From: an uncultured Gemmatimonadota bacterium
GTDB taxonomy: Bacteria > JAAXHH01
DNA length: 64,000 nt
Assembly (NCBI GenBank): GCA_951812955.1
Contig: OX638340.1
Span: 3,232,001 to 3,296,000 of the forward strand
Direction: 5' to 3'
Notes under the pieces: generated by a model
Told to the model about the DNA's origin: nothing
Databases searched by the model: none
The model's input: only the letters and a program-made list of their open reading frames with translations
Program-made: the position numbers and the translations under genes
In this document: positions 10,978 to 53,471 of the stretch, piece after piece
Position numbering within the stretch: the stretch's first letter is position 1
Layout: every line of letters begins with the position of its first letter

Positions 10978-11021
10978 TTTCGTGCAATCGAGTATGGACT
11001 TTCGTGCAATCGAGTATGGGC
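10978..11021. repeat. 22-bp direct repeat x2 (tttcgtgcaatcgagtatgg[ag]c) upstream of promoter
   Basis: Two perfect-adjacent copies read directly, 60 bp upstream of the -35 box; a candidate regulator binding site. Confidence 0.5.
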
Positions 11022-11080
11022 TTGTTCCGGGCGGGCATGTTCCGGTGCGCCGAACGGTTCCCTGAAGGTCCAATATTGGC

Positions 11081-11134: not shown

Positions 11135-14100
11135 ATGCCACATAGGTTGCGGTTTATTCTGGCGTTCCTGTGCCTGCTGGCCATGCCTGCGGCAGCGTTC
11201 GCCCAGGGGGATTACTTCGGGCGGAACAAGGTCCAATACCGCGACTTCAAGTGGGAAATCATCTCCACGCCCCACTTCGAAATCTACTTCTACCAGGGAG
11301 AGGAAGAGGCGGCCTACGATGCCGCCCGGATGGCGGAACGGTCCTATAACCGTCTGAGCCGCATACTGCAGCACAGGTTTAGCGACAAGATCCCAATCAT
11401 CCTGTACGCCTCCCATACCGATTTCCAGCAGACCAACGTCCTGCCGGGCTTCATCAGCGAGGGCACCGGCGGCGTGACGGAATTCAACAAGAACCGCATA
11501 CTGCTGCCCTTCACGGGATCGTACGCGGAACTGGAGCACGTACTCACCCACGAACTCGTTCACGCCTTCCAGGGTGACGCGATCTACGGCGCCGGTCCCG
11601 GCGTCTCCATCCTGAATCCCATGGCCTTCATCGCCCCGCTGTGGTTCATGGAGGGCATGGCGGAGTACCTGTCCCTTGGCCGAATCGACGCCTATACCCA
11701 CATGTGGCTGCGCGACGCGGCGCTGCAGGGATACCTCCCAGCGTCCATCCCCGCCATGGACTACAGTTTCGGCGTCTACCGGTTCGGCCAGGCGCTCTTC
11801 GCCTACATCGGCGAACGGTACGGAGATCGCAAGATCGGCGAGATTCTCCGCAAGACCGGCCGCCTGCGAAACGTGAACGAAGCCTTCCGTTCGTCCATCG
11901 GTAAGGATATCGAGAAGCTTTCCGACGAATGGAACGAGCACGTGCGCCAGACCTACCTGCCACAGATCAAGGATTACGAAAAGCCGCAGGCCTTTGCCCG
12001 GCAACTGACCGACGTCAGGGAATCCCGGGCGGGTATACATCTCGCCCCGGCGATTTCGCCGCGTGGAGACAAGCTGGTTTTCATCTCAAATAAAAGCCTG
12101 TACAACGATATCTACCTGGCCTCCGCCATCAACGGCGAGGTGATCTCCAAGCTGGTCGAGGGCGAACGCTCGGCCGATTTCGAGTCCCTCCGGTTTTTCT
12201 CCACGTCCATTTCCTGGTCGCCCGATGAGCAGTACATCGCCTTTCCGGCCAAGGTGGGGGCGCGGGACGCCTTGTATGTCATGGACGTGAGGAAGAGGAA
12301 GGTCGTCCGGCGCATCAAGGTCGATCTCGACGGCGCCACGTCGCCGAGTTGGTCGCCCGACGGCAGCCAGCTGGTCTTCGTCGGCCTGCAGGGCGGACAG
12401 TCGGACCTGTACGTGATAGACGCCACGGGAGGGAACCTGCGCGCCCTGACCCAGGACCGGTACACCGATCGTGATCCCGTGTGGTCGCCCGACGGCAGCC
12501 AGATCGCTTTTTCCACGGACCGGGGCGACGTGACCAATTTCCGGACGCTCACTTTCGGTTATCAGCAATTGGCGGTATACGACCTGGCCACGGGGGAAGT
12601 CGATAAGATCCCCGACCAGATCGGAAAAAGCATCTCGCCTCAATGGTCCGCCGATGGCGAGAAGATCGCCTTCATATCGGACCGCACCGGTATTTCCAAT
12701 ATTTTTATTCGGGACATGAAATCAGGCGAGACCTACCAGATTACCAACATCCTCACCGGGGTGACCAACGTTACGGCCGCGGGTCCCGCCATAAGCTGGG
12801 CGCAGAAGGCTGACCGGCTGGTTTTTTCTTCCCTGTCCTGGGGCGGATTCGACCTGTTCTCCATCAGCGATCCGGTGTCGCTGATGAAAGAGCCCTACGA
12901 TCACGCAAAATCGGCGACGCCAGGCGCCTCTCCCGATGCAGCGCAACTGGCCCCTCCGCTCAGGACCGAACCTTCGGAAGAAACCGCCGACGGCGAGGAC
13001 GGCGATGGTACATCGCTGGACCCGGAAGTGGCAATCGACGGTATCGAGTCCGCGTCACCGGACTCAGACGCCGACTCCGACACGAGTCAGTCGATTTCAG
13101 CGCAGGACGACGAGAAGGTCACCGAGGAGAAGGTTACCGAGGAGAAGGATACCGAGGAGAAGGTCACCGAGGGGAAGGTTACCACGATCCAGACCGTACT
13201 TACGGAATCTCCCGATACGACGTCCACCACGAATGAAACCACACCGCGGGAGGAGCCGGAGGAGACAGGAAGTTCCGATCTTCTGCAGCAGCCGGAGTTT
13301 CCTTTCGGTCCCGTCACCAGAGGAATCGGGCCGGGTGGCGAATTGCCGGATACTACCGCATGGATCGACGGCACCTTCACGAAGAAGAAATACTCCCCCG
13401 ACTTCGGCCTCGACTATATCGGCGGGAATGCGGGTTACGCCACGAACGTCGGTCTGGTGGGAAGTTCCCTTCTTTCCTTCAGCGATATCCTGAATAACCA
13501 CAAGATTCTGGTGGGAGCCAACGTATTCGGTTCCCTGACGGACGCGAACCTGCTGCTTCAGTACACCAACCTGACTCGGCGCGTCAACTGGAGCGTGGCG
13601 GCTTTTCAGTACAGCTATGATCTGTTCTACAACTACCAGAGCCCCATCCTTACCCAGGTTACGACCCAGATCAATCGCGGCGTGCATCTCTTCGTAAGCC
13701 GGCCTTTCAGCAAGTTCAGCCGCTTGGAACTGGGTATTCAGGGGGTGCACAGGTCCCGTGAGCTGGTGGATGTGAGTTTCAATTACTTCGGCATCCGCCG
13801 GAACCGGCGCGGGAGCCTGGGCAGCGTGAATTTCGTGCAGCCCACCGCCGCCCTGGTCACCGATCACACGCTCTATGGCGTTACCGGACCGATCGCCGGC
13901 GCCCGGGGCCGCATCGAAATAACCCCGACTTTCGGCGAACTCCAGTACACGCGCGCCTTCATCGATTACCGAACGTACATCAACGTAATGCAGCGGTACG
14001 CCTTTGCCTTTCGCCTGTTCGGACTGGCCAGCGAGGGGCGCGACCAGGAACTCTTTCCCTTTGGCGGGCCCTATGATTTTCGTGGCGCCAACTACTGGTC

Positions 14101-26459: not shown

Positions 26460-26526
26460 GAGTGGCTACAAGGTCTTCGGGGGCTGATTCGCTTACGGAG
26501 TTCCGCTGTGACACTCCATCTGGTCA

Positions 26527-26626
26527 TACGGTGACGCCCCTGACGGATTATATGGTGAAGGCCCTACCTGGTTGTGGTTGTACGGTGGCGCCCTTGCCTG
26601 GGTTGTGCGGTGACGCCATTGCCCCG
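26527..26626. repeat. three direct repeats of ~21 bp (t[ag]cggtg[ag]cgcc..tg.c.gg), two in tandem, in the larB upstream region
   Basis: Read directly between the larB start (26459) and the dipeptidase stop (26645); a candidate operator. Confidence 0.4.
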
Positions 26627-29303: not shown

Positions 29304-30008
29304 ATGTTCTACGATACCGTGATTTTTGATGCGGCGGGTACCCTCGTCGGCCGGGATTCTCCGGATTTCTTCGAGGAGTTCTTCGTTGTCGCGGCCGGGG
29401 AGCTCGGGACCGAGGTGACACTGAACCAGGTGAAGGCCGCGCTTTCGAAATCCATGGAGGAACCGCGGTTCCGGCTTCGCGAAGGACGCATGAGCACGCC
29501 GGAGCAGACGCGCCGGTACTTTCTGGATCTCTACGCCCACGTGTTGAACGGAGCGGGCGTTGAGGGTGACCTGGCGCAGGGGTTACAGGCGTACTACGAC
29601 CGGTTCCAGGACGGCAGGTACCTGGACGTGTACAGCGACGTCCGGCCCACGCTGGAAGCGCTGAAGACCGGTGGCATGCGCCTCGGGGTGCTGTCGAACT
29701 GGTCGGAACACCTCGCGCTGGTCCTGGAGCGGCTCGACCTGGACCGGTACTTCTCCTTCCTCGTCGTTTCCGCCGAAGTCGGATGTGAAAAGCCCGACGA
29801 GGAGATCTTCCGCCTGGCCCTGGATCGTGCGGAAACCCCGATCGACCGCATCCTGTACATCGGAGACTACCCGGAGGAGGACATCCTGCCCGCCGAGCGT
29901 ATCGGGCTGGATGCCCTCCTCATCGATCGGTACGACAAGTACGGGCGATATCGCCTGCCCACCATCAACACATTGACGGATGTCCCCGGACTGATTGGCC
30001 TCTCATGA
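29304..30008 (+). CDS. HAD-superfamily hydrolase
   Basis: Motif I VIFDAAGTL; motif III/IV …YIGDYPEEDI…. Confidence 0.7.
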   Translation: MFYDTVIFDAAGTLVGRDSPDFFEEFFVVAAGELGTEVTLNQVKAALSKSMEEPRFRLREGRMSTPEQTRRYFLDLYAHVLNGAGVEGDLAQGLQAYYDRFQDGRYLDVYSDVRPTLEALKTGGMRLGVLSNWSEHLALVLERLDLDRYFSFLVVSAEVGCEKPDEEIFRLALDRAETPIDRILYIGDYPEEDILPAERIGLDALLIDRYDKYGRYRLPTINTLTDVPGLIGLS

Positions 30009-30019
30009 GGGAAGCGTCC

Positions 30020-30135
30020 TGAACGAGTGCGTCAAGAACGAAGGTGTGTCATGAACGAAGGCGAACCATGAACGAAGACGTGGCATGAACGAGTGCAAAC
30101 CATGAACGTAGGCGAACCATGAACATAGGCGAACC
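30020..30135. repeat. 17-bp tandem repeat x ~7 (catgaacgaaggcgaac) ending with the unit that contains the ATG of the next gene
   Basis: Each unit carries ATG; the last unit (catgacagagaaaccg) is the true 5' end of the 30136 CDS. Read directly. Confidence 0.8.
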
Positions 30136-31377
30136 ATGACAGAGAAACCGATCCGCGTAGGCGTAGTGGGCGTGGGCCGCGGGAAGAGTTTCGCGCAGAC
30201 CGCGTCCGGCGCCGTGGGCATGCAGCTCGTCGCGCTGTGCGACACCTGGGAGGAGCGGTTGCAGCAGTTGGCCGGGGAACTCTCCGTCGCCGCGTACACC
30301 GATTACGACGCATTCCTCACCCACGACATGGACGCCGTCGTCCTGGCCAACTACTTCCACCAACACGCGCCGTTCGCCATCAAGGCTCTGCGGGCGGGGC
30401 GGCACGTCATGAGCGAGACGGCCTCCAACGCCACCCTGGCCGAGGGGGTGGCCCTGTGCCGGACCGTTGAGGAGACCGGCCGGATCTACATGTTGGCCGA
30501 GAACTATCCGTACACGGTCTTCAATCAGGAGATGCACCGGTTGTACGGCGAGGGGGAGATCGGCGAGGTAACCTATGCCGAGGGGGAGTACAACCACCCC
30601 ATGGCCCGGGACGACAGCCTCCGCCTGTCACCGGGATTCGACCACTGGCGGGCGTGGATTCCCTCCACCTATTACTGCACCCACGCCCTGGCTCCGCTGG
30701 TATACATCACCAATACGCGGCCGGTTGGCGTGAACGCCCTTGCCATCGCGCGGCCCGAGCGCACCCTCACGCTCAGGAGAGGAGACCCGGGGTCTGTCAT
30801 CCTCTGCCGCATGGACAATGGCGCGGTGTTTCGGATCTTCGGACTCAGTATGCCGGGCCACAGCAACTGGTACCGCGTGCACGGCGAACGGGGCGCCATG
30901 GAGATCACGCGGGGACCGGGATACTTCGGACCGGGAGAGGTGCGGGTGTGGCATGAGCCGTGGCACCTGGAACCCGGCCAGGAAGCGGAACGGGTATACC
31001 GGCCGGACTGGCCCGAACACGGCGATCTCGCCCGCGAGGCTGGGCACGGGGGTGGCGACTTCTGGACCAGTTTCCATTTTGCCCGGGCCATCCGTTCGGG
31101 CGAACAGCCCTTCCTGGACGTCTACCGCGGCGTAGCCATGTCGTCGGTGGGCATCCTGGCCTGGAAAAGCGCGCTGGAAGACGGGCGCCCCTTCGAAGTG
31201 CCCGATTTCAGGGACGAGGACGACCGTAAATCCTGGGAGAACGACCACTGGTCGCCCTGGCCCGGACATGCCGGACCGGGACAGCCGCCTCCCAGCATAC
31301 TCGGCCGTCGCGACCCGGCTCCGGAACATATCCCATACGCCCGTCGCATATGGAAGGACATGGGTTACGAGGGGTAA
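30136..31377 (+). CDS. Gfo/Idh/MocA-family NAD(P)-dependent oxidoreductase
   Basis: N-terminal Rossmann IRVGVVGVGRG; C-terminal Gfo/Idh/MocA alpha/beta domain. Confidence 0.85.
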   Translation: MTEKPIRVGVVGVGRGKSFAQTASGAVGMQLVALCDTWEERLQQLAGELSVAAYTDYDAFLTHDMDAVVLANYFHQHAPFAIKALRAGRHVMSETASNATLAEGVALCRTVEETGRIYMLAENYPYTVFNQEMHRLYGEGEIGEVTYAEGEYNHPMARDDSLRLSPGFDHWRAWIPSTYYCTHALAPLVYITNTRPVGVNALAIARPERTLTLRRGDPGSVILCRMDNGAVFRIFGLSMPGHSNWYRVHGERGAMEITRGPGYFGPGEVRVWHEPWHLEPGQEAERVYRPDWPEHGDLAREAGHGGGDFWTSFHFARAIRSGEQPFLDVYRGVAMSSVGILAWKSALEDGRPFEVPDFRDEDDRKSWENDHWSPWPGHAGPGQPPPSILGRRDPAPEHIPYARRIWKDMGYEG

Positions 31378-31532: not shown

Positions 31533-31566
31533 AAGGGGATTGCGTGTGTGCGCAATCCCCTTTTTG
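31533..31566. terminator. bidirectional rho-independent terminator (aaaggggattgcg-tgtgtg-cgcaatcccctttttg)
   Basis: 12-bp stem plus T-tract; A-tract on the other side. It separates tRNA-Glu (+) and the convergent SBP gene (-). Confidence 0.65.
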
Positions 31567-31608
31567 CTTTCATGCCGTCCGGTTTGCTTTCTGTGCCGTC
31601 CGGGGGCG

Positions 31609-39811: not shown

Positions 39812-40810
39812 CTAGCTGCTCCCTTCGGTTTGCACCGCCTGTTTGATCACGGCAATGGCGGCGAGATCGCCCACTTCGTCTCCCAGCCCGGCGGCTTCTA
39901 CGCGCACCGTGTCGTAAACCCGCTCCCAGGTTTCTCGCCGCAGGTAATCGCGAATGGGTTCCAGGAGCAGATCCCCGGCTTTGACCAGGATGGTGCCGAT
40001 TACGATGATTTCCGGGTTCAACACATTCACGATGTTGCCCAGTCCGGTGGCCATGTACCTTGCCGTCTCGTCCACGATTTGCCGCGCACAAGGGTCGTTC
40101 TTCCTGGCCGCGTCCATGACGGTTTCCGCCGTAATGCGGTCCGGGTCGCCGCCTGCGAATGCGATCAGGAGCGAGTCCGGCGCCGCTTGCGCCTTCTCCC
40201 GGGCCCGCCTGGCGATCGATGGTCCCGAACACAGGGACTCGAGGCAACCGCGCTTTCCGCAACCGCAGGCCGGTCCGTTCTCGACGATGGTCATGTGCCC
40301 CACTTCGCCGGCCGTGTCGTTCGGACCGCGGTAGAGCCTGCCGTCGAGTATGATGCCGCCGCCGATGCCGGTGCTCATGGTCATGTATACCATGTGGCGG
40401 AAGCCCCGGCCGGCCCCGAAGGACCACTCCGCGAGGGCGCACGCGTTGGCGTCGTTCTCGACGAATGCCGGCAGCGACAGCGCATCTTCGAGCCACGCTT
40501 TAAGCGGTACCTCGTCCCAGCCCGGTAGATTGGGCGGCGCGTAGACCACGCCGGTTTCCGTGTCCAGGGGGCCGCCGCAACTAACGCCGACACCGGCCAG
40601 GTCCGACGAGGAGAGGCAGGCGCGCGCCATGGCTTCGCGGGACATGTCCACCAGCGTCGCCACCACGGCTTCCGGTCCCCGATCGGCTTCCGTCGGCCGC
40701 CGGACTTTGTGCAGGATGTTCCCGTTCCGGTCGGCGATTACCACGGCCAGCTTGGTTCCGCCGACGTCGTGGCCCAGAAGGTAAGGGGCGTTCCGGTCTG
40801 GCTGGGACAT
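39812..40810 (-). CDS. ROK-family sugar kinase (glucokinase/N-acetylglucosamine kinase-like)
   Basis: HDVGGTKLAVV ATP motif; ROK zinc motif CGCGKRGCLE. Confidence 0.85.
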   Translation of the reverse strand: MSQPDRNAPYLLGHDVGGTKLAVVIADRNGNILHKVRRPTEADRGPEAVVATLVDMSREAMARACLSSSDLAGVGVSCGGPLDTETGVVYAPPNLPGWDEVPLKAWLEDALSLPAFVENDANACALAEWSFGAGRGFRHMVYMTMSTGIGGGIILDGRLYRGPNDTAGEVGHMTIVENGPACGCGKRGCLESLCSGPSIARRAREKAQAAPDSLLIAFAGGDPDRITAETVMDAARKNDPCARQIVDETARYMATGLGNIVNVLNPEIIVIGTILVKAGDLLLEPIRDYLRRETWERVYDTVRVEAAGLGDEVGDLAAIAVIKQAVQTEGSS

Positions 40811-43557: not shown

Positions 43558-44026
43558 AAAAGGACGTGTCCGCATGGTGGACGTGACGGAGAAACCGGTA
43601 ACGGAAAGGCGTGCGGTGGCCTACGGGGAAATAAGGGCCGCAACCGACACCATCCGGAAGATCTCCGCCGACGAAATGGGCAAGGGCGACGTGCTGACCA
43701 CCGCGAAGATCGCGGGCATCTCGGCGGCCAAGCGTACGGGCGACCTCATTCCCATGTGCCATCCCATCCCGCTGGACCACGTGGAGATCGACATTTCTCT
43801 GGACGAGGATGCGGCCAGGATCGGCATCCTTGCCACGGCGTTGTCATCGGGGAAGACCGGGGTGGAAATGGAAGCCCTGACGGCCGTCTCCGTGGCCGCC
43901 CTGACCATCTACGACATGTGCAAGGCCGTGGACCGGACCATGGAGATCGCTTCCATCCTGCTGGTGGAAAAGGAAGGCGGCCGTTCCGGAAGGTTTATTC
44001 GGCCGGGGTGGGAGGGGCCGGGGTAG
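43535..44026 (+). CDS. moaC: cyclic pyranopterin monophosphate synthase MoaC
   Basis: LSHLDEKGRVRMVDV...IPMCHPIPL...EMEALTAVSVAALTIYDM. Confidence 0.9.
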   Translation: MELSHLDEKGRVRMVDVTEKPVTERRAVAYGEIRAATDTIRKISADEMGKGDVLTTAKIAGISAAKRTGDLIPMCHPIPLDHVEIDISLDEDAARIGILATALSSGKTGVEMEALTAVSVAALTIYDMCKAVDRTMEIASILLVEKEGGRSGRFIRPGWEGPG

Positions 44027-44429
44027 TTTTCCTTATAGTGTTTTGAGACTGGCCCAGAACTATATTCGTAGCGCAGTAGTTGACTGTCTTGTTTACATAA
44101 TGAGCAAGGCACATACATGCCAATTTCGTCCTGATTGCAATAAGGATATATGATCTAAAATGTTTTCAGATAGCCCGTTCTAGGAGGTTTTCTAAACTAC
44201 CATTATCGAATTCTTAAAGATGGTTTCGCTTCCAACAGTTCGTGAGCGTATCGGATTCCAGACCTTCGACTCTTCCAACCCCCTTTAAAATCAGTCATGT
44301 ACTTCAGTTTCAAGAATTCCACTCTTTCGCCATACACATTTGGTTTTTCATAATCCCTCCAAAACATCCAACTTTCCAATTCCGACACGTCTTGATCCAG
44401 AAGATGATTTCTGGAAATATAGAGTTTGC

Positions 44430-44819
44430 CTACACCATCTTGTATCGAGCAGGTCCTTTCTTCCGAGCGGGAGGCAGTTTGGTTACAAAGCCCTGTTTGA
44501 CCAACCAGTTCATTGAAGCATGAACCAAGCTTCTTGACGATCTTTTGGGGTCGGCTTTTGTTTCCAACAGTCCGTTGGTTCGTAACATATGGAGTTCCTT
44601 GCAGAGATCGTCGGTATCCAATACCGAGCCGGGATGGGCAATAAACATCCGGCGGATACACTCTGTTGGGGTTTCTCTTTCAAAAAGTGTATTATCTGTT
44701 TCTGTGGACCGTGTGGCTTCATACTCCTTGTTCAATTCAAGGACGCCATTTAAACGATCTATCTCTTTCTCGAGCTCGGAAACTCTCTGTTTTACCCACG
44801 ATAAAAATGATTCATTCAC
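44430..44819 (-). CDS. hypothetical protein (N-terminal coiled coil), island-borne
   Basis: 129-aa ORF with AAAGGTGA RBS 6 nt upstream of the ATG and AT-rich codon usage; it overlaps another -strand ORF (44203..44661) in a different frame. Confidence 0.3.
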   Translation of the reverse strand: MNESFLSWVKQRVSELEKEIDRLNGVLELNKEYEATRSTETDNTLFERETPTECIRRMFIAHPGSVLDTDDLCKELHMLRTNGLLETKADPKRSSRSLVHASMNWLVKQGFVTKLPPARKKGPARYKMV

Positions 44820-44841
44820 CTTTCACCCCCGTGGAAAAGGA

Positions 44842-44870
44842 TTGACATAGATGACCAAACAAGATATCAT
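44842..44870 (+). promoter_or_regulatory. near-consensus sigma70 promoter TTGACA-N17-TATCAT
   Basis: Read directly; it points rightwards into the tRNA-like fragment and is divergent from the 44819 gene. Confidence 0.45.
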
Positions 44871-44893
44871 AATAGGCAGTTGGGAGTGAAACG

Positions 44894-44925
44894 AGGAAGC
44901 CCCGCCGGGAGTCGAACCCGGACCT
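44894..44925 (-). other. tRNA-derived 3' fragment (T-arm CCGGG-TTCGACT-CCCGG + acceptor 3' strand), no matching 5' half
   Basis: The plus strand shows ...gagtcgaacccgg..., the reverse complement of a canonical T-loop. The upstream sequence cannot pair as an acceptor or anticodon stem, so this looks like a partial att-site-like tRNA copy rather than a gene. Confidence 0.35.
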
Positions 44926-44996
44926 CACCCTTCGTGTGCAGTGGCTCTTTCCTTTAAGCTACGAGGCCCCTCGCTCTCAAACCTTCCAGCTACATC

Positions 44997-45039
44997 GGGT
45001 TGCCCTAGATCCTCCCAGATCAACGTACAGGGGCAACCC
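44997..45039. repeat. 9-bp perfect inverted repeat (gggttgccc...gggcaaccc) with 25-nt loop
   Basis: Read directly. Confidence 0.5.
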
Positions 45040-45672
45040 GACCTTCTAATATACATAACGACCATAAGATTGTCTGTCAACAGTTATTTCGTCGAGACAG
45101 TATAGAATTGCCTGTCCACACTGTTTACAGTAGACAACAGGCGTAATATCACAATAGCAAAGAAAAAGCGCAAGCAAAACAGTCAAGAGTGTTCACTGGG
45201 CAGAATCGGGGCAGAATCGTGAAAGATATCTGCCCGCACCGGCTACACCGGAACAGGTGGGAGTGTATCGTCCAAGAATAGGGCTTTGGAATAATGTCGT
45301 GAGACATGAGGACAAGAAAAATGGGTAAGTCGGTTAACCTACGAACGCTTGAGATTGATTACCTTAAGGCGGTAAATGACCGGGATCTAGCCGATCAGCG
45401 TGTAAGGGACCTAAAGCGTATCGCCCTACACCCCGTTCGTTGGCGAATTCATTCACAGCGAAATTGATGGCGTGGAATGGGAAACGAACTGGCAGCTACG
45501 GACACCCCGCTTGGCGGTAACTCGGAGGTCTATGCACTATGGTAGAAAAGTTGCCCGAGCAGTCTACAGAGGTGCTCACCAACTCTACCAACTAAGTAAA
45601 ACGGGCTTGGGCTGGACATGATTAGGAAGGCACATATCTCCTAAAGAACAGATCGATAGGCGATGTTTTTTC

Positions 45673-45700
45673 TTGACGTACTTTTAATCTTGCCTATATT
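45673..45700 (+). promoter_or_regulatory. argR promoter candidate TTGACG-N16-TATATT
   Basis: Good -35/-10 hexamers, 60 bp upstream of the argR ATG. Confidence 0.45.
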
Positions 45701-45705
45701 GCGTC

Positions 45706-45756
45706 CGTGCATGAATGGAATAATAATTCCTAATTATGGATAAATATTCATCGAAC
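45706..45756 (+). promoter_or_regulatory. ARG-box-like operator(s) (TGAAT…ATTC palindromes) overlapping argR 5' UTR
   Basis: tATGGATaaatATTCAt (45735..45752) matches the 18-bp ARG box consensus TNTGAATWWWWATTCANW with one mismatch. An upstream tgcATGAATggaataATaATTCC half-site-rich stretch is also present. Confidence 0.45.
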
Positions 45757-45761
45757 CGAGC

Positions 45762-46238
45762 ATGAACGCCAAGCACCAGCGCCAGGGAACCATACGATCA
45801 CTTATCGAGCGGGGGCACTTCCACACGCACAAGGAGGTGATCGCAGCGTTGCGCACGGAAGGGATCGACATCAACCAGGGCACACTGTCCAAGGATTTCA
45901 AGGAACTGCATGTAATCAAGATCCGCCTCGCCGACGGTCAGTACAAGTACGTGCTGCCGCGCTATTACTCGGTAGAGACGCAGGACGAACTGGTCGAACG
46001 GGAGATCCGGGATTTCGTCGTCAGCGCGGACGACGCGATGAATCAGGTCGTCCTGCACACCTCCGCCGGTCACGCGTCGGGGGTGTGCGAGGCGATCGAC
46101 CGGGCGGAATGGCCCGAGATCATAGGCAGCGTCGCGGGTGAGAATACGATTCTCCTGGTCACCAAATCGACCGATCAGGCCGGGAAGACGCTTAAACGCA
46201 TCAAGAGTATCATGAAGGAAAAGAGGGAAGGCACATGA
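45762..46238 (+). CDS. argR: arginine repressor ArgR
   Basis: Winged-helix N-domain (RQGTIRSLIERGHFHTHKEVIAALRTEGIDINQGTLSKD) and arginine-binding C-domain. Confidence 0.9.
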   Translation: MNAKHQRQGTIRSLIERGHFHTHKEVIAALRTEGIDINQGTLSKDFKELHVIKIRLADGQYKYVLPRYYSVETQDELVEREIRDFVVSADDAMNQVVLHTSAGHASGVCEAIDRAEWPEIIGSVAGENTILLVTKSTDQAGKTLKRIKSIMKEKREGT

Positions 46239-47254
46239 TTAAACTGGGTATCATCGGCGCGACGGGATATACCGGAATGGAATTGTACCGGTTGGCGTCG
46301 CGTCATCCCGGCATCGAGGTCGTTTTCGCCACGTCGGAACAGTATACCGGGCAAAACCTCGGAGAGGTCTTTCCCCGGATCGATCCGGACCGGGACACTA
46401 CGCTGAGATCCCTGGATGAAATTGCCGCCGTACCCGCGGACGTGGTCTGTTTCTGCACGCCGGACGGGGTGGCCATGGACCGGGTCGGTGCCTTCCTGGA
46501 GCGAGGCGTGCGCGTCGTGGACGTCAGTTCCGATTTCCGGTTCGACGACCCCGATGTATACACGACCTGGTACAGCCGTCCGCACACGGCGCCGGAACTG
46601 CTCGATTCGGCGGTCTACGGGATTCCCGAATTGAACCGGGACCGCATACGGACAGCCGATCTCGTTGGCAATCCGGGCTGCTATCCCACGGGCGTGATCC
46701 TCGGACTGGCCCCGCTGCTCGAAGCGGACGCCATCGACGCCTGTCAGGTCATCGTGGACGCCAAGTCGGGCGTCAGCGGCGCCGGACGGGGCCTGAAGCT
46801 GCGCAATTTATACGTGGAAGTGAACGATAGCATCACGCCGTACAACATCGGCCACACCCACCGGCACGTAGGTGAAATCGAACAGGAATTGTCCAGGTTC
46901 TCCGACGAGCAGCCCTATGTCGTCTTTTCGCCCCACCTGACGCCCATGAGCCGGGGCATTCTGGCAACCACATACGTGCGGGTGAAGAACGGCGCGGCCA
47001 ACGGCGATCTGGCGGACCTGTACGAGCAGCGTTACAGAGGGGAACCCTTTATCAGGCTGTCCCGGTCCGGCTATCCCGAGACACGGTTCGTGACCTGGAC
47101 GAATTACTGCGATCTTCGGATCGACCGGGTGGACGGATCGGACCTGGCCATCGTCACTTCCGCCGTCGACAACCTGGTCAAAGGCGCGGCCGGCCAGGCG
47201 CTCCAGAACGTGAACGTCATGTTCGGCCGGGACGAGACGACCGGGCTGATCTAA
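46235..47254 (+). CDS. argC: N-acetyl-gamma-glutamyl-phosphate reductase
   Basis: IIGATGYTG Rossmann; catalytic GNPGCYPT motif. Confidence 0.9.
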   Translation: MIKLGIIGATGYTGMELYRLASRHPGIEVVFATSEQYTGQNLGEVFPRIDPDRDTTLRSLDEIAAVPADVVCFCTPDGVAMDRVGAFLERGVRVVDVSSDFRFDDPDVYTTWYSRPHTAPELLDSAVYGIPELNRDRIRTADLVGNPGCYPTGVILGLAPLLEADAIDACQVIVDAKSGVSGAGRGLKLRNLYVEVNDSITPYNIGHTHRHVGEIEQELSRFSDEQPYVVFSPHLTPMSRGILATTYVRVKNGAANGDLADLYEQRYRGEPFIRLSRSGYPETRFVTWTNYCDLRIDRVDGSDLAIVTSAVDNLVKGAAGQALQNVNVMFGRDETTGLI

Positions 47255-47300
47255 GGAACGACCGGGCTGATCCAGGAACGACGGGCTGATCTATGGAACG
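47234..47300. repeat. ~21-bp tandem repeat x3 (g[ag]aacgaccgggctgatct[ac][ag]) = triplicated 3' terminus of argC including stop codon
   Basis: Copy 1 is the end of argC (…ACGACCGGGCTGATCTAA); copies 2-3 follow immediately, trailed by degenerate copies. Confidence 0.8.
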
Positions 47301-47384
47301 TCGCGGCACGACGCGGTAGGACAAGAAGCGGCACGACTCGGTATGACATGAGCAAATGCAGCACTGCGATCGATTGGGATCATT

Positions 47385-48173
47385 ATGGAACGAAGCATTG
47401 TGGTTAAGCTGGGTGGCGCGACGATCGAACAGGCCGGCGTGATCGAAGAGTTGGCCGCCGACCTTCGGGGCATGCCGGACGTCTTCCCGATCATCGTCCA
47501 CGGCGGCGGCTCGGAGATCGGCCGGTACCTTGAACTACTGGGCAAGGAGTTCACCTTCGTGAAGGGACTGCGGGTGACGGACGGCGACATGGTCGAAATC
47601 GTGGAAATGGTCCTGTCCGGCAAGATCAACAAGGAACTGGTTTCGCGATTCCAGCACAACGGAGTGAACGCCCTCGGCGTTAGTGGCAAGGACATGGGCC
47701 TGCTGCGGGCGGAACGTTACCGGAAGGACGGTGTGGACATCGGTTTCGTAGGTGAGATCGTGGAGGTGAATACCGCCCTGTTCGAACTGTGCGCGTCGAA
47801 CCGCGTCACGCCGGTTGTCTCTCCCATTTCAGGGGGCACGAACGGGGAAACCTACAACGTCAACGCGGACCACGCCGCGCTGGATATCGCCCGGGCTGTC
47901 GCCTGCGAGGACGTCATCTTCATTTCGGACGTGGCCGGCATCTACCGTTCAGACGGCCGTGCGCTGAGGATGCTTACCCCGGAACTGGCCGACGCGCTGA
48001 TCGAAGCGGGCGAGATCACCGGAGGGATGATTCCCAAGGTCCACTCCGCGCTGGAATGCCTGTCGCACGGCGTCGGACGGGCCCGCATCATCGCTTGGCA
48101 CGGACCCGGGACGCTGCAGAAGGAACTGGCGTCGGCAGAGAGTGTTTTTGGTACGGTAGTTACGACTGGATAA
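47385..48173 (+). CDS. argB: acetylglutamate kinase
   Basis: VVKLGGA...HGGG... amino-acid kinase motifs. Confidence 0.9.
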   Translation: MERSIVVKLGGATIEQAGVIEELAADLRGMPDVFPIIVHGGGSEIGRYLELLGKEFTFVKGLRVTDGDMVEIVEMVLSGKINKELVSRFQHNGVNALGVSGKDMGLLRAERYRKDGVDIGFVGEIVEVNTALFELCASNRVTPVVSPISGGTNGETYNVNADHAALDIARAVACEDVIFISDVAGIYRSDGRALRMLTPELADALIEAGEITGGMIPKVHSALECLSHGVGRARIIAWHGPGTLQKELASAESVFGTVVTTG

Positions 48174-48191
48174 TCGGTAGTCGTTACTGGA
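48154..48191. repeat. 17-bp tandem repeat x2 (cggtagt[tc][ag][ct][gt]actgga) spanning argB stop codon
   Basis: The 3'-terminal 17 nt of argB are re-copied 4 nt after the TAA. Confidence 0.7.
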
Positions 48192-48226
48192 AGACGTGAA
48201 GTTACCACAGGAAGAAAGGATACAGC

Positions 48227-49420
48227 ATGACCACCGAAGAGATCATCGCCCTGGAGGAACAGTACATCGCGCCGACCTACGTGCGCCCGCCCGTCGTGTT
48301 CGACCGGGGCAGCGGCGTCTACGTCTACGATCTCGAGGGCCGGCGGTATCTCGATTTCCTCGGCGGTATCGCGGTGAATTCCCTGGGCCACGGGGTGCCC
48401 GAGGTCATCGGCGCCGTGGCCCAGCAGACCGCGAAACTGATGCACATTTCCAACCTGTACCACACCGAGCCCCACGTGAGACTCGCGAAGTTGCTCGTGG
48501 ATAATGCCTTCCCGGCCAGGGTGTTCTTCTGCAACAGCGGGTCGGAGTCTATCGAGGCGGCCCTGAAATTCACCCGCCGCTGGGCGTCCGAGGCGGGCGG
48601 GGAAGCGAAGCACGAGATCGTGACTTTCGAGAATGCCTTTCACGGCCGCACGTACGGCGCCGTCAGCGCCACGGCCCAGCCCAAGTACCACGAGGGCTTC
48701 AAGCCCATGGTACCCGGCATGGTATACCTCCCGCTCAACGAGATCGAACCCCTCGAGAAGGCGATTACGGAGGAGAAGACCGCGGCCGTCATGGTGGAAC
48801 CTGTCCAGGGCGAGGGAGGCGTCAATCCCGCGCACGTGGAATTCCTGCAGCATCTGCGCAAGTTGTGCGACGAACGCAAGGTCGCCCTGATTTTCGACGA
48901 AATACAGTGCGGGCTGTGCCGCACGGGCAAGCTCTTCGCCTACCAGCATCACGGGATCGAACCGGACGTCATGACCCTGGCCAAGCCGCTAGCCGGCGGT
49001 CTGCCCATCGGCGCGGTCATCATGAAGCCGCACATCGCCGAGGTCCTCAAGCCGGGCATGCACGGTTCCACGTTCGGTGCGAACCCGGTGGCCTGTCACG
49101 TAGCCCACGCCGTCGTCAGCAAGATGATCGAAGAGGGACTGGCCGACCGGGCCGTGGAAATGGGCGGGATGCTGACGGACGGTATAAGGGCGCTGGCCGA
49201 AACCCACGGCGACATCAAGGACGTCCGCGGCGCCGGGTTGCTGATCGGCGTGGAATTCGAGGGCAAGGTCGACGCCATCCTGGGCGCCTGCCGGGAGGCG
49301 GGCCTGATCATCGGGACGGCCGGCGAGAACGTGCTCCGCTGCGCGCCGCCTCTGGTCATTGAACAGCAGCACGTGGACGAAGCGCTGGGGATCATCGGCG
49401 GGGTACTGGACGCGCGGTGA
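48227..49420 (+). CDS. argD: acetylornithine aminotransferase (class III PLP aminotransferase)
   Basis: …FDEIQCGLCRTGKLFA… PLP-lysine region; GxSGSEAIE motif. Confidence 0.9.
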   Translation: MTTEEIIALEEQYIAPTYVRPPVVFDRGSGVYVYDLEGRRYLDFLGGIAVNSLGHGVPEVIGAVAQQTAKLMHISNLYHTEPHVRLAKLLVDNAFPARVFFCNSGSESIEAALKFTRRWASEAGGEAKHEIVTFENAFHGRTYGAVSATAQPKYHEGFKPMVPGMVYLPLNEIEPLEKAITEEKTAAVMVEPVQGEGGVNPAHVEFLQHLRKLCDERKVALIFDEIQCGLCRTGKLFAYQHHGIEPDVMTLAKPLAGGLPIGAVIMKPHIAEVLKPGMHGSTFGANPVACHVAHAVVSKMIEEGLADRAVEMGGMLTDGIRALAETHGDIKDVRGAGLLIGVEFEGKVDAILGACREAGLIIGTAGENVLRCAPPLVIEQQHVDEALGIIGGVLDAR

Positions 49421-49473
49421 GCCAGCCGCGGAGGGTTAGCGGTGCCGCGGTGAGTTGCCTTCGCCGCGGTGAG
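49411..49473. repeat. 11-bp repeat x3-4 (gccgcggtgag) = re-copied 3' terminus of argD including TGA
   Basis: cgcgcggtgag (gene end) is followed by ccgcggagg, gccgcggtgag and gccgcggtgag with short spacers. Confidence 0.7.
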
Positions 49474-49514
49474 TCACCTGCGAAGCGTAGAGCATCTAAT
49501 AGAATGGGAAAGTC

Positions 49515-50879
49515 ATGACCGACAGCCGGGACATAGCACTCAAGCAACTGATGGACGATTTCCATGCTTCGATCGACGTGGACCGCCGATTGTTTCGGGT
49601 GGACATCCGGGGCAGCATTGCCTATGCCCGGGGCCTGGTACGCATCGGTGTGCTCACCGGTGAGGAAGGCCGGACGATCGAAGATGCGCTGGCGGAGATC
49701 GAAGGTGAGATCGCGAGCGGCGCTTATGCGCTGACCCGCGATCTGGAAGACATCCACATGGCGGTGGAGAAACGCCTGATCGAGAAGGCGGGTCCGGTGG
49801 GAGGCAAGTTGCACACGGGCCGGAGCCGCAACGACCAGATCGCCACGGACGAGCGCCTCTATCTACGCGAGGTGGTGGACGACATCGCCGGGCGGATTAG
49901 AGGTTGCCAGGAAGCCCTGCTGGCGCTGGCCGAGCGCACGGTGGACGTCGTCTTCCCCGGGTACACCCACCTGCAGCAGGCGCAGCCGATCCGGTTCGCC
50001 CATTACGCGCTCTCCCTGTTTTTCGGACTTCAGCGCGACCGGGAGCGCCTGGCGGACTGCCGGAAACGGATCAACATCCTGCCCCTCGGCGCCGGAGCGA
50101 TGGCGGGCAGCGCCTTTCCCATCGACCGGGCGTTTCTGGCCGAAGAACTCGGTTTCGACGGGTTGTCGCCCAACAGCATCGACGCGGTGAGCGACAGGGA
50201 CTTCATCGCCGAATTCCTCGCCGTCTGCACGATGTTGATGATCCACATCAGCCGGGCGTGCGAGGATCTGGTCATCTGGTCATCCACGGAATTCGGATAC
50301 ATCACGCAGCATCCCCGGCTGGCGACGGGCAGCAGCATCATGCCGCAAAAGAAGAACCCGGACGCCGCCGAACTGCTCCGGGGCAAGGCCGGGCGCGTCG
50401 TGGGCGACCTGGTTTCCCTCGTCACCATGCTCAAGGGCCTGCCCCACGCGTACAACAAGGATATGCAGGAAGACAAGGAACCGCTCTTCGACGCCATCGA
50501 CACGGTGACCGTCGCGCTGACTGTCTACACTGCGATCTGGGAGACCTTGGAAGTCAGGGAGGCACGCGTAAACCGGAGCATGGACGACGCCATGCTGGCC
50601 ACGGACCTGGCGGACTTCCTGACGCGATGCGGCGTGCCCTTCCGCGAGGGGCACGGTACCGTGGCCGCGCTCGTGGACGAGGCCGCAAGCAGGGGTTGCA
50701 GCCTGCGGGATCTGCCGCTCGCTTTGTACCAGCAGTATTCGGAACACTTTGATGAAGCCGTGATCGGGCAGCTCAGGTTCGACGACAGCACCGACATGCG
50801 CGCCTTACCCGGCGGAACCGGAAGGAACTCCGTGCTGCGCCAGTTGGAACAAGCCCGCGATATCCTGGCGGGCGGATAA
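49515..50879 (+). CDS. argH: argininosuccinate lyase
   Basis: Fumarate-lyase signature region (GSSIMPQKKNPD). Confidence 0.9.
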   Translation: MTDSRDIALKQLMDDFHASIDVDRRLFRVDIRGSIAYARGLVRIGVLTGEEGRTIEDALAEIEGEIASGAYALTRDLEDIHMAVEKRLIEKAGPVGGKLHTGRSRNDQIATDERLYLREVVDDIAGRIRGCQEALLALAERTVDVVFPGYTHLQQAQPIRFAHYALSLFFGLQRDRERLADCRKRINILPLGAGAMAGSAFPIDRAFLAEELGFDGLSPNSIDAVSDRDFIAEFLAVCTMLMIHISRACEDLVIWSSTEFGYITQHPRLATGSSIMPQKKNPDAAELLRGKAGRVVGDLVSLVTMLKGLPHAYNKDMQEDKEPLFDAIDTVTVALTVYTAIWETLEVREARVNRSMDDAMLATDLADFLTRCGVPFREGHGTVAALVDEAASRGCSLRDLPLALYQQYSEHFDEAVIGQLRFDDSTDMRALPGGTGRNSVLRQLEQARDILAGG

Positions 50880-50901: not shown

Positions 50902-51495
50902 ATGGCCATGAATAAAAAAGACATGTCCGGGATGCCGGAGTCGAACGGTAGCGAAACAATCATCCGCCCGGCCGTGATCGGGGACGTTCCCGAAATCATG
51001 GAAATCCTCGAGCCCTACATCGAAGAGGATATCCTCCTGCCTGTGTCGGTCTACCGCCTCTTCGAGCACATCCGGTACTTCGTCGTCGGCGAACGCGATG
51101 GCCAGGTGATCGGATGCGGATCCCTCGTGATCATATGGCACGACCTGGCGGAGGTACGGTCGCTGGCCGTCCGGAGAGGCTGCCATGGCGGCGGCATCGG
51201 CGGGCGCATCGTCGATGAACTGATCGCCGAGGCGGAGGAGCTGGGTGTCGCCCGGGTCTTCGCCCTGACCTACGAGACCGGTTTTTTCGGCCGCCACGGG
51301 TTCGAGGTAGTCGACCGTGATACGCTCCCGCACAAGGTATGGAAGGACTGTACCAACTGCGCCCGTTTTACCCACTGCGACGAAATCGCCGTGGCCCGGA
51401 CGCTGATCCCCGAGGACCAGCGCGCGCCCGAACCGGCCTTGCCGGCCATGCAGCAGGATCCCACCCTGATCATGCCTTCGCCCGCCCCGCGGTAA
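50902..51495 (+). CDS. GNAT-family N-acetyltransferase (short-form N-acetylglutamate synthase candidate)
   Basis: GNAT acetyl-CoA motif RRGCHGGGIGGRIVDEL; located directly after argH. Confidence 0.55.
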   Translation: MAMNKKDMSGMPESNGSETIIRPAVIGDVPEIMEILEPYIEEDILLPVSVYRLFEHIRYFVVGERDGQVIGCGSLVIIWHDLAEVRSLAVRRGCHGGGIGGRIVDELIAEAEELGVARVFALTYETGFFGRHGFEVVDRDTLPHKVWKDCTNCARFTHCDEIAVARTLIPEDQRAPEPALPAMQQDPTLIMPSPAPR

Positions 51496-52716: not shown

Positions 52717-53471
52717 GCCTTATGGTCGTCCGTGGTTGAGATTCGAAATGCTCTGCGCACATCTCGGAAATTACATCGTCTACGCGAAGGCTGAGATACG
52801 GCTATCTAAGGCGAGTCTGCTTCTGGAACAAAATAGACTTCGAGATTCAGGTTGAGAAATCGACTAATACCAGTAAGCAAGTTCCATGTAGGTATCCGTT
52901 TGACGTGTTCGGCTCTTGCGTTTGATCCACGCGTATTGTGCATTGCTACAATCATCGATCATCGGATTGCCTCTTATCGGGGCTGGATCGAATCCACGAC
53001 ATCGATCGAAGGAGTGGATTTCATGGGATGGCTCTATGAAGCCAAAAAGAGACGGCACAGGGTAGAAGGACGTGCTGAGGGCCGGAGAGAGTGACCAGGC
53101 CTACAGGGAGTGGATCAACAGGGAACAAGAGGCTGGTATGCTTGGCACACCGAAGCAAAGTCCTCCGCCGTTTCTTGATGATAGAATCTGCGATCAGGCC
53201 AACGGCTCGGATCATTGACACGGCTGGTTTTTCGATAGTCTCGGAAATCCGGGTATTGGCCTTTGGGGGACAGGATGGTTTGGCCAGTCGGATCCCCAGG
53301 ATTATTAGTAACGAATTCGGCAATGAGTCGTTTCTACGTCTGGCTCTGAACTTGCCCTATCCGGCTCAGATGTGACTACCACGTATACTGTCCTCCCCTC
53401 ATGCGAAATCGCTCGACATCGACCCGAACCTCTTCCAGAGCCTTCGCGATTCCAACCTAAAGGATGGGGCG

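What the first reader, a model, noticed from the sequence alone, without database searches (positions are those of the whole stretch)
47234..49473. Three consecutive arg genes each end in tandem re-copies of their own 3' terminus, stop codon included
The last ~20 nt of argC are triplicated, the last 17 nt of argB are duplicated, and the last 11 nt of argD recur three to four times, all as tandem copies. Each first copy is the genuine gene end, and later copies carry a stop or mutated stop and sit in the short intergenic spacers. This is neither a classical terminator nor REP-like. It suggests a recurrent local duplication process such as slippage or template switching at operon junctions. Alternatively the copies could be selected elements, for example translational coupling or ribosome-rescue spacers, or protein-binding direct repeats.
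Basis: seen in the sequence. Interest (0 to 1): 0.55.

Follow-up and report, generated by a model that had tools for sequence, protein, structure and literature searches.

The report
Operon junctions padded by boundary duplications
In this sponge-associated bacterium and its relatives, the short gaps between neighbouring genes have repeatedly grown by tandem copying of the gene boundary itself, stop codon included, which leaves decaying "fossil" gene ends between intact genes. This looks like an ordinary slippage process made unusually visible, not a new machine.

Summary
argC, argB and argD each end in a periodic array whose first unit is the true gene end. Each array beat all 2000 shuffles. 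argB has three 21-nt units, not two of 17 nt.

In 23 related sponge or coral Latescibacterota MAGs the gene order is conserved, but the spacers range from 1–16 nt to 107–217 nt. The long spacers are decaying tandem copies of the boundary, built independently in different lineages. Examples are a 40-nt argH end present four times, and an argC end present about eight times.

Units often span the whole junction. The last copy keeps the ancestral stop plus the ribosome-binding region next to the downstream start.

The same process occurs outside the arg operon, for example a 17-nt array of ATGA stop/start overlaps at 30005–30139 and the TolB–YfiO junction in relatives.

Between close strains, almost every indel lies in a tandem repeat. 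Indels in coding sequence are, with one split exception, multiples of 3; intergenic indels are of any length. The spacers show no RNA structure, no terminators, no dispersed repeat family and no excess of bridging ORFs.

Best reading: slipped-strand tandem duplication filtered by selection, near-neutral and VNTR-like. It is a new variant of a known kind, of moderate interest.

The parts
46235..47254 (+). argC coding sequence (N-acetyl-gamma-glutamyl-phosphate reductase). Its last 21 nt are unit 1 of the array.
   Evidence: TIGR01850 match, E 8.9e-119, covering residues 2-338 of 339. The C-terminus DETTGLI* is conserved in relatives.
47234..47303 (+). argC/argB junction array. Units are 47234-47254 (stop TAA), 47255-47275 (CAG), 47276-47294 (TAT) and a partial fourth unit. 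Each unit begins GGAACGA, which also matches the argB start ATGGAACGA.
   Evidence: TRF period 21 x 3.1 copies, 86% identity. Smith-Waterman z 6.1. Repeat families D1, D3 and D4. 0 of 2000 shuffles reach the periodicity.
47303..47351 (+). Second tandem repeat in the same spacer, 24-25 nt x 2 (GCGGCACGAC[G/T]CGGTA[G/T]GACA).
   Evidence: the repeat finder family D2, 88% identity. Lag 25, 0 of 2000 shuffles. Copy number differs in L001 and L002.
47385..48173 (+). argB coding sequence (acetylglutamate kinase).
   Evidence: TIGR00761 match, E 9.3e-62.
48153..48215 (+). argB/argD junction array, three 21-nt units: ACGGTAGTTACGACTGGATAA / TCGGTAGTCGTTACTGGAAGA / CGTGAAGTTACCACAGGAAGA.
   Evidence: Lag 21, 62% identity, 0 of 2000 shuffles. 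Repeat family D1, 48158-48170 against 48200-48212.
48195..48226 (+). Fossil of the ancestral argB end plus the argD ribosome-binding region: 'gttaccacaggaAGAaaggatacagc' directly before the argD ATG.
   Evidence: Compact relatives read 'accactggaTGAaaggat…ATG' with an 11-nt spacer. Expanded relatives keep this block next to argD, while argB now ends upstream in TAG or TAA.
48227..49420 (+). argD coding sequence (acetylornithine aminotransferase).
   Evidence: TIGR00707 match, E 3e-146, covering residues 14-393 of 397.
49411..49480 (+). argD/argH junction array. GCGCGGTGAG is the gene end (49411-49421). Copies lie at 49425-49435 (GCCGCGGAGGG), 49444-49454 and 49463-49473 (both GCCGCGGTGAG).
   Evidence: Three of the window's four exact CGCGGTGAG lie here. 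Lag 19, 0 of 2000 shuffles. Longer copies of the same gene end occur in the L006 and L016 spacers.
49515..50879 (+). argH coding sequence. Its junction with the N-acetyltransferase gene (50902..51495) is compact here (22 nt), but in relatives it is expanded by copies of the gene end.
   Evidence: TIGR00838 match. L003 has a 40-nt unit x 4, with the first re-copy 100% identical including the TGA. L001 has 87 nt more than the window at 96-98% protein identity across the arg genes.
30005..30139 (+). Array of 14- and 17-nt units copied from an ATGA stop/start overlap, between a HAD hydrolase gene (29304..30008) and an oxidoreductase gene (30136..31377). Each ATG opens a 6-codon mini-ORF that ends in the next ATGA.
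   Evidence: TRF periods 17 and 34. Lag 17, z 8.9. Extra units number 2, 5, about 7 and 8 or more in L083, L082, the window and L081. The mini-ORF relay is unbroken in L082 and L083 and broken at a CTGA in the window and L081.
26524..26623 (-). Intergenic 25-nt tandem array downstream of the M19 dipeptidase gene. It is not derived from a gene end.
   Evidence: TRF. Differs by +25 nt in L081 and L089 and by -92 nt in L090 relative to the window.
31563..31603 (-). 21-nt x 2 duplication in a 3' untranslated region, just upstream of a terminator-like hairpin.
   Evidence: TRF, 90% identity. Present as a single copy in L081 and L083.
10978..11023 (+). 22-nt x 2 duplication in a long intergenic region.
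   Evidence: TRF, 95% identity. The close strain L090 (97.5% nucleotide identity) has one copy.
13108..13183 (+). In-frame 15-nt x 5 coding tandem repeat in the Tricorn/PD40-like gene. It shows the same process under a reading-frame filter.
   Evidence: TRF. Differs by +15, -15 and -30 nt in strains L088, L089 and L090.

Best explanation
The arrays are products of ordinary slipped-strand (microhomology-mediated) tandem duplication, followed by further slippage. They act on formerly compact operon junctions in a clade of sponge- or coral-associated Latescibacterota.

Proposed sequence of events:
1. A duplication whose unit contains the stop codon, and often the whole junction up to the next gene's ribosome-binding site or start, leaves both genes intact. 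The first copy still ends the upstream protein correctly. The last copy still carries the native translation-initiation region of the downstream gene.
2. Such events are therefore nearly neutral. They persist, expand and contract like VNTRs, and decay by point mutation. The result is spacers made of fossil gene ends.
3. Duplications elsewhere are seen only where they are tolerated, meaning in-frame inside genes or at any length in other noncoding DNA.

What is shown:
- the periodicity of the arrays
- their derivation from gene ends
- a compact ancestral state
- many independent events
- copy-number variation between strains
- the frame filter
- the lack of structure or shared motif

What is inferred:
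- slippage as the molecular mechanism
- near-neutrality
- the reason this clade shows so much of it (a higher slippage rate, or weaker removal of noncoding DNA)
For: 1. Periodicity. All three arg arrays and the 17-nt array exceed 2000 of 2000 shuffles. CGCGGTGAG is clustered, with 3 of 4 exact copies together.

2. Orthologous junctions. Gene order argR-argC-argB-argD-argH-NAT is conserved in 23 relatives. Spacers vary over 1-172, 11-107, -11 to 217 and 9-165 nt. The long ones are decaying copies of the upstream gene end, including its stop.

3. Polarity. Outgroups and one subclade keep the compact state, and sister taxa differ strongly. At argB/argD the last copy is the ancestral 'ggaTGAaaggat' junction, while the gene now ends in TAG or TAA.

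4. Enrichment.
- Smith-Waterman score of the gene end against its own spacer is >=30 in 9/154 clade junctions. It is >=30 in 0/174 junctions of unrelated high-GC controls and 0/154 interior controls.
- Strong noncoding tandem repeats occur at 0.37-0.42 per kb in the clade and 0.07 per kb in controls. Coding tandem-repeat density is similar in both.

5. Generality.
- The ATGA array at 30005-30139 has about 2 to 8 extra units in four genomes.
- The TolB-YfiO junction is compact in three genomes but carries gene-end copies in L085 and L086.
- Non-boundary noncoding arrays also exist.

6. Indel spectrum between close genomes at 95-98.5% nucleotide identity.
- Nearly all indels of 4 nt or more lie in tandem-repeat loci. 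The one clear exception is an 11-nt intergenic indel with no similarity to its flanks. A 7+5-nt coding gap pair and two coding gaps near 24990-25010 are also not clearly tandem.
- In-CDS indel lengths are 6, 9, 12, 15, 24, 30 and 108 nt. The only non-multiples are that 7+5-nt pair, which sums to 12.
- Intergenic indel lengths are 5, 8, 11, 12, 16, 23, 25 and 76 nt.

7. No alternative function detected.
- RNA folding z-scores are 0.83, 0.12, -0.10 and 1.16.
- There are no terminators or promoters in the spacers.
- There are no Rfam hits.
- Units are unique to their locus.
Against: - Enrichment in the fetched loci is concentrated in the arg operon: 17 of 73 flagged junctions there, against 2 of 81 other junctions. 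These loci were chosen because of the arg finding, so genome-wide generality rests on only a few other junctions.
- Coding tandem-repeat density is not raised relative to controls, so a globally raised slippage rate is not demonstrated.
- The controls are a modest sample, about 310 kb, mostly Alphaproteobacteria.
- Both unit lengths of the ATGA array are 2 mod 3, and its ATGA cores are better kept than the rest of each unit. That hints at selection on at least that array.
- No mechanism for the clade specificity was identified.
Confidence: 0.7

Rival explanations
1. The expansions are selected. Lengthening the junction uncouples or tunes translation of neighbouring arg genes. It could also free the downstream ribosome-binding site from the coding constraint of the upstream gene, or build chains of ATGA-linked mini-ORFs that relay ribosomes, as MIRUs do.
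For: - The last copy next to the downstream start is strongly conserved, while the middle copies decay.
- The argB stop changes from TGA (6 of 6 compact species) to TAG or TAA in expanded species.
- The ATGA array has unit lengths 14 and 17, both 2 mod 3. This gives an unbroken mini-ORF relay in L082 and L083.
- Expansions are concentrated in one operon.
Against: - Bridging ORFs across arg spacers are not enriched (7 of 54 observed, 5.5 expected).
- Spacer lengths show no preference modulo 3.
- Sequences and copy numbers turn over between genomes whose arg proteins are 96-98% identical.
- Compact and expanded states coexist in sister taxa.
- There is no structure or shared motif.
- Conservation of the last copy is expected anyway, because it is the pre-existing initiation region.
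Confidence: 0.15
2. A lineage-specific, targeted mutational mechanism acts at gene boundaries. Examples would be breaks or polymerase stalling where translation or transcription ends, repaired with short duplications, or footprints of a mobile element that targets junctions.
For: - Strong tandem repeats are enriched only in noncoding or junction DNA relative to controls, not in coding DNA.
- Many independent hits fall on the same few junctions.
Against: - Tandem duplications of the same size class also occur away from boundaries, in promoter regions and 3' untranslated regions, and in-frame inside genes.
- Unit lengths of 14-56 nt are variable and too long for typical target-site duplications.
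- No mobile-element remnants or inverted repeats are present.
- The filter model explains the boundary bias without any targeting.
Confidence: 0.1
3. Chance similarity, or an assembly or sequencing artefact.
For: Taken alone, the argD repeat is short (11 nt), and its match to its own spacer is not significant (z 1.0).
Against: - Shuffle tests are significant for all arrays.
- Similar arrays appear in independent assemblies made with different technologies and from different samples, with biologically sensible variation.
Confidence: 0.02

Closest known systems
Bacterial minisatellites / VNTR loci produced by slipped-strand mispairing
   Same: Head-to-tail direct repeats of 10-60 nt. Copy number differs between close strains. 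Indels are confined to repeat loci. Repeats inside genes are in-frame only.
   Different: Here the founding unit is the gene boundary itself (C-terminal codons, stop codon, and often the next gene's initiation region). The arrays are therefore fossil gene ends, and they arise repeatedly at compact operon junctions across a clade.
MIRU (mycobacterial interspersed repetitive units) in operon spacers (PMC3184786, PMC12548453; Supply et al. 1997, cited from those reviews)
   Same: Tandem units in intercistronic regions of polycistronic operons. In MIRUs a unit-borne ORF overlaps the flanking genes with -4 nt coupling. The ATGA array at 30005-30139 has exactly this property.
   Different: MIRUs are one dispersed, probably mobile sequence family present at about 40-50 loci. 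Here every junction has its own unit, derived from local sequence. The arg arrays also lack enriched bridging ORFs.
Overlapping or tightly spaced co-directional genes with translational coupling (ATGA and TGA/Shine-Dalgarno overlaps; PMC10666635, PMC12548453, PMC2784483)
   Same: The inferred ancestral junctions are of this type: the ATGA overlap at argR/argC, 1-nt and 11-nt spacers, and a TGA embedded in GGATGAAAGGA.
   Different: Those papers, as far as I read them, concern how overlaps function. Here the overlaps are being undone by duplication of the overlap region.
Intergenic spacers in organelle genomes derived from tandem duplication of adjacent gene ends (tandem duplication followed by random loss; own knowledge, plus titles returned)
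   Same: Noncoding spacers that are recognisable decayed copies of the neighbouring gene sequence.
   Different: Organelle events are usually larger, involving whole genes or tRNAs, and belong to a different genetic system. Here the units are 14-56 nt, lie in bacterial operons and behave like VNTRs.
REP elements and intrinsic terminators in operon spacers
   Same: Their location between co-directional genes.
   Different: The arrays have no palindromic hairpin, no U-tract and no dispersed consensus.

Membership tests
Slippage-derived tandem repeat (VNTR / minisatellite) | Head-to-tail direct copies with significant periodicity | tested here: met
   TRF. Autocorrelation reached by 0 of 2000 shuffles for the argC, argB, argD and 17-nt arrays.
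Slippage-derived tandem repeat (VNTR / minisatellite) | Copy number varies between closely related genomes, with gains of whole units | tested here: met
   - Window against L001: +123 and +87 nt in two arg spacers and none in coding sequence.
- The 17-nt array has 2 to 8 or more extra units.
- The 25-nt and 15-nt arrays vary in strains at 97-98.5% nucleotide identity.
Slippage-derived tandem repeat (VNTR / minisatellite) | Direct demonstration of replication slippage as the mechanism | not testable with these tools
   The organism is uncultured. The mechanism is inferred from perfect adjacent copies (L003, L009, L082) and from an indel spectrum largely confined to repeats.
MIRU-like intercistronic repeat | One sequence family dispersed at many loci in the genome | tested here: not met
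   Each unit matches only its own locus in the 64-kb window at up to 3 mismatches.
MIRU-like intercistronic repeat | A unit-borne ORF whose start and stop overlap those of the flanking genes | tested here: inconclusive
   Met by the ATGA array. Not enriched in the arg spacers (7 observed against 5.5 expected). The single bridging ORF at 49417-49518 is compatible with chance.
REP / intrinsic terminator / structured intercistronic RNA | A stable hairpin, with a U-tract in the case of terminators | tested here: not met
   Folding z-scores of 0.83, 0.12, -0.10 and 1.16. No terminator-like sites in the spacers. No significant inverted repeats at argC. No Rfam family other than tRNA.
CRISPR-like array | Conserved repeats separated by unique spacers of similar length | tested here: not met
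   Units abut or are separated by a few bases, and they decay with distance.
Arginine biosynthesis operon (argR-argC-argB-argD-argH-NAT) | Gene products match the curated family models | tested here: met
   TIGR01529, TIGR01850, TIGR00761, TIGR00707, TIGR00838 and NF005840.

The most novel reading that the evidence does not exclude
Boundary duplication could be a lineage-specific force on genome architecture rather than noise. On this reading it systematically dissolves overlaps between coding sequence and ribosome-binding sites at operon junctions. The first copy keeps the C-terminus and the last copy keeps the initiation region, so the duplication resolves the conflict. Sometimes it builds ATGA-linked mini-ORF relays that preserve translational coupling. 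It would also account for a measurable share of genome-size differences among these symbionts. Supporting hint: summed arg-region spacers against chromosome size give rho 0.90 in 9 chromosome-scale MAGs (eight labelled chromosomes plus one 3.84-Mb contig), although these genomes are not phylogenetically independent.
Probability: 0.15. Interest if true: 0.7.

Novelty: new variant of a known kind. Interest (0 to 1): 0.45.

Why it matters
- It gives a clear natural record of how compact bacterial operon junctions turn into intergenic DNA. The new spacer is copied from the gene boundary. The ancestral stop and ribosome-binding region survive as a fossil beside the next gene.
- It explains odd pseudo-gene-end repeats that could confuse gene callers, stop-codon assignment and repeat annotators in these uncultured sponge symbionts.
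- It offers hypervariable markers for strain typing.
- It provides a test bed for two questions: how far translational coupling tolerates spacing, and what limits slippage or removal of noncoding DNA in symbiont genomes.

Tried and rejected
- **Exact-protein look-ups.** Look-ups of the window's ArgB, ArgD and ArgC found nothing on record.
- **15-mer end test.** A stop-inclusive 15-mer test flagged only argC in the window. It is too strict for decayed copies.
- **Overall tandem-repeat density.** At a low TRF score threshold, total tandem-repeat density does not separate the clade from controls. Only strong noncoding repeats do.
- **Structured RNA or terminator.** Rejected.
- **Dispersed repeat family (MIRU, REP, MITE).** Rejected.
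- **Backup in-frame stop codons.** Rejected. The in-frame second argC copy has CAG, and read-through would continue for more than 40 codons (sequence).
- **General mini-ORF relay across arg spacers.** Rejected.
- **Two weaker junction hits.** The Smith-Waterman hit at the 8060..10834 gene end (score 25) lies about 100 nt downstream and is not tandem. The 8-nt 'TGACCGGG' x 2 at 29270-29285 is not an insertion relative to L081. Neither was counted.
- **Literature.** Searches for a prior description of stop-inclusive junction duplications in bacteria returned mainly mitochondrial-genome papers and nothing specific.
- **Microhomology origin of the argC array.** A possible origin is the shared GA[G/A]ACGA in the argC end and the argB start. 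It was considered but cannot be established for old events.


Full report
**Observation**

The region 46.2-50.9 kb carries argR-argC-argB-argD-argH followed by an N-acetyltransferase gene. NCBIfam equivalog models confirm these assignments, and the models align to the C-termini.

- **argC (ends 47254).** Its last 21 nt (47234-47254) recur at 47255-47275 and 47276-47294, with a partial fourth unit. TRF reports period 21 x 3.1 copies at 86% identity. The stop position reads TAA, then CAG, then TAT. A second 25-nt x 2 repeat follows at 47303-47351.
- **argB (ends 48173).** The array is three 21-nt units (48153-48215), not a 17-nt duplication.
- **argD (ends 49420).** Three of the window's four exact CGCGGTGAG copies lie within 61 nt, and there is one degenerate copy.

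None of 2000 shuffles reaches the observed periodicity for any of these arrays.

**Organism and relatives**

A genome scan with ArgB returned 23 close relatives (71-98% identity). All are MAGs labelled Latescibacterota, 'Gemmatimonadetes' or 'bacterium'. Several bin names suggest sponge or coral hosts. Sponge-associated Latescibacterota are described in PMC12993501 and PMC7081726.

Gene order is fully conserved, but spacer lengths are not:

| Junction | Spacer range (nt) |
|---|---|
| argC-argB | 1-172 |
| argB-argD | 11-107 |
| argD-argH | -11 to 217 |
| argH-NAT | 9-165 |

The long spacers are visibly made of decaying tandem copies of the upstream gene end, including its stop:
- L003 has a 40-nt argH end four times. 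The first re-copy is identical, TGA included.
- L009 has 'cggggctgctcTGA' three times.
- L016 has about eight argC-end units, with a higher-order duplication among them.
- The L006 and L016 spacers contain 25-27-nt copies of the argD end.

The argR-argC and NAT-to-next-gene junctions behave the same way in some species. So does the end of a DUF420 gene.

A neighbour-joining tree places the compact state in the outgroups and in one subclade. It also shows large differences between sister taxa. The events are therefore derived and numerous, and there were probably also losses.

**Anatomy of a unit**

The unit is the junction, not just the 3' terminus.

At argB/argD the compact relatives read 'accactggaTGAaaggat…ATG'. 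Expanded species, including the window at 48195-48226, keep that block intact next to argD as the last copy. argB itself now ends upstream in the first copy, with TAG or TAA. The middle copies are hypervariable.

The first copy therefore preserves the protein end, and the last copy preserves the downstream initiation region. In the argC array each unit begins GGAACGA. This matches both argC's GAGACGA and the argB start ATGGAACGA. That is compatible with slippage between a short direct repeat flanking the old junction, but this is inference only.

**Beyond the arg operon**

- **The ATGA array.** At 30005-30139, units of 14 and 17 nt lie between a HAD hydrolase gene and an oxidoreductase gene. 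They are copies of an ATGA stop/start overlap. Three metagenome relatives carry 2, 5 and 8 or more extra units, against about 7 in the window. Runs of identical adjacent units indicate recent expansion. Each ATG opens a 6-codon ORF that ends in the next ATGA. This relay is unbroken in L082 and L083 and broken at a CTGA in the window and L081.
- **The TolB-YfiO junction.** Loci around ExbD from four further genomes show this junction compact (6-10 nt) in three genomes, counting the window. L086 carries a 34-nt gene-end copy (28/34 identical, stop included). L085 carries two 28-nt copies of the ancestral C-terminal end.
- **Non-boundary arrays.** Noncoding arrays that do not touch a gene boundary also occur.

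**Statistics**

- The Smith-Waterman score of each gene's last 40 nt against its own spacer is >=30 in 9/154 clade junctions. It is >=30 in 0/174 junctions of unrelated high-GC controls and 0/154 interior controls.
- Strong tandem repeats (TRF score >=60, period >=12) occur at 0.37-0.42 per kb of noncoding DNA in the window and clade. In controls the figure is 0.07 per kb. Coding densities are similar in both.
- At score >=50, 13 of 14 coding periods in the related loci are multiples of 3. Only 6 of 24 noncoding periods are.

Caveat: within the fetched arg loci the signal is concentrated in the arg and NAT junctions (17 of 73 flagged) rather than the other junctions (2 of 81). Those loci were chosen because of this finding.

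**Indel spectrum**

The window was compared with genomes at 95-98.5% nucleotide identity, and with L001, whose arg proteins are 96-98% identical.

- In the strain comparisons (L088-L090) nearly every indel of 4 nt or more lies in a tandem-repeat locus. Two coding gaps near 24990-25010 are less clearly tandem.
- Against L081, one 11-nt intergenic indel shows no similarity to its flanks. A 7+5-nt pair of coding gaps falls in a divergent stretch.
- In coding sequence the lengths are 6, 9, 12, 15, 24, 30 and 108 nt. The only non-multiples of 3 are the 7+5-nt pair, which sums to 12.
- In intergenic DNA the lengths are 5, 8, 11, 12, 16, 23, 25 and 76 nt.
- Against L001, no indel falls inside an arg-operon coding sequence. 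Within the arg region the indels lie in the junction spacers. The remaining differences between the two genomes lie in the low-GC flanking regions.

Tandem duplication and deletion is therefore the main indel mode, and it is filtered by reading frame.

**Tests of functional alternatives**

- The spacers do not fold better than shuffles (z 0.83, 0.12, -0.10, 1.16).
- They contain no terminator-like or promoter-like sites and no Rfam families.
- They are not copies of a dispersed element.
- An ORF bridges argD's stop (GTGA) and argH's start (ATGA) in the window. Such bridges are not enriched across 54 expanded spacers (7 observed, 5.5 expected).
- The copies do not provide in-frame backup stops.

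**Interpretation**

The most likely explanation (about 0.7) is slipped-strand tandem duplication acting generally, with selection letting through only harmless events. At compact junctions the harmless events are the ones that contain the stop codon or the whole junction. The arrays then behave as near-neutral VNTRs and decay.

Three points remain open:
- why this clade shows so much of it
- whether the arg operon is truly a hot spot
- whether the ATGA relay is maintained by selection

Summed spacer length tracks chromosome size in nine chromosome-scale MAGs (rho 0.90). These genomes are not independent, so this is only a lead.

**Comparison with known systems**

The arrays qualify as slippage-type minisatellites. 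They fail the defining feature of MIRUs, which is a dispersed family, although the ATGA array works like a MIRU with -4 coupling (PMC12548453, PMC3184786). They are not REPs, terminators or CRISPR-like arrays.

I found no prior description of stop-inclusive junction duplications as a recurrent source of operon spacers in bacteria. The searched library is incomplete.

**Verdict**

This is a real feature and a new variant of a known kind, of moderate interest.

Noticed in passing
window 44026-45760: Low-GC (about 0.47) segment lying between a conserved gene and argR. Most of it is absent from the close relative L001. It contains a tRNA-like gene at 44895-44968, for which ARAGORN reports an odd 4-base anticodon 'cacg'. 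It is probably an inserted foreign element or its remnant.
   Followed up: partly
window 52700-64000: Low-GC (0.46-0.55) region that looks like a defence island. It carries a 1630-aa NACHT NTPase (54983-59875, minus strand), a Type ISP restriction-modification enzyme (61488-63998, minus strand, running off the window) and nucleotidyltransferase-domain proteins (51499-52716 and 53844-54257). L001 diverges from the window from about 52975.
   Followed up: partly
window 49417-49518: A 33-codon ORF starts at a GTG overlapping the argD stop (GTGA) and ends at a TGA overlapping the argH start (ATGA). It is compatible with chance: 38% of shuffled spacers also give a bridge, and bridges are not enriched across relatives.
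   Followed up: yes
argB stop codon, window 48171-48173 and L001-L023: All six in-group species with a compact argB-argD junction use TGA, embedded in GGATGAAAGGA. Sixteen of the 17 in-group genomes with an expanded junction use TAG or TAA (L023 keeps TGA), and most of them keep the old TGA as a fossil in the last copy. The species are not phylogenetically independent.
   Followed up: partly
L001, L003, L006, L008, L010, L016, L017, L021, L022 (chromosome-scale MAGs): The summed length of six arg-region spacers (62-603 nt) correlates with chromosome size (3.70-3.97 Mb), Spearman rho 0.90. This suggests junction expansion may be genome-wide and may contribute to genome size. It is confounded by phylogeny.
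   Followed up: partly
window 40910-40955: A perfect 23-nt x 2 tandem duplication (TGCTTTCAATCGGTTGTCACGCG) lies in a divergent promoter region between 39812..40810 (minus strand) and the gene ending at 41609. It could be a very recent duplication or a duplicated operator. No relative covering this site was fetched.
   Followed up: no
L085 8813-9019; L087 414-666: Two further lineage-specific noncoding arrays. One is a 24-nt unit (atatcaagccgccgggacagggc) x 5 upstream of exbB in L085, which is single-copy in the other genomes. The other is a unit of about 10-11 nt (ggcctggactgg-like), repeated about 8 times, after a TonB-dependent receptor gene in L087.
   Followed up: no
window 13108-13183, 21249-21388, 35667-35735, 38343-38409: In-frame coding tandem repeats with periods 15, 24, 18/36 and 33. 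The 15-nt repeat in the Tricorn/PD40-like protein varies by one or two units between strains at 97-98.5% identity. The 35.6-kb repeat region differs by 108 nt from L081.
   Followed up: partly
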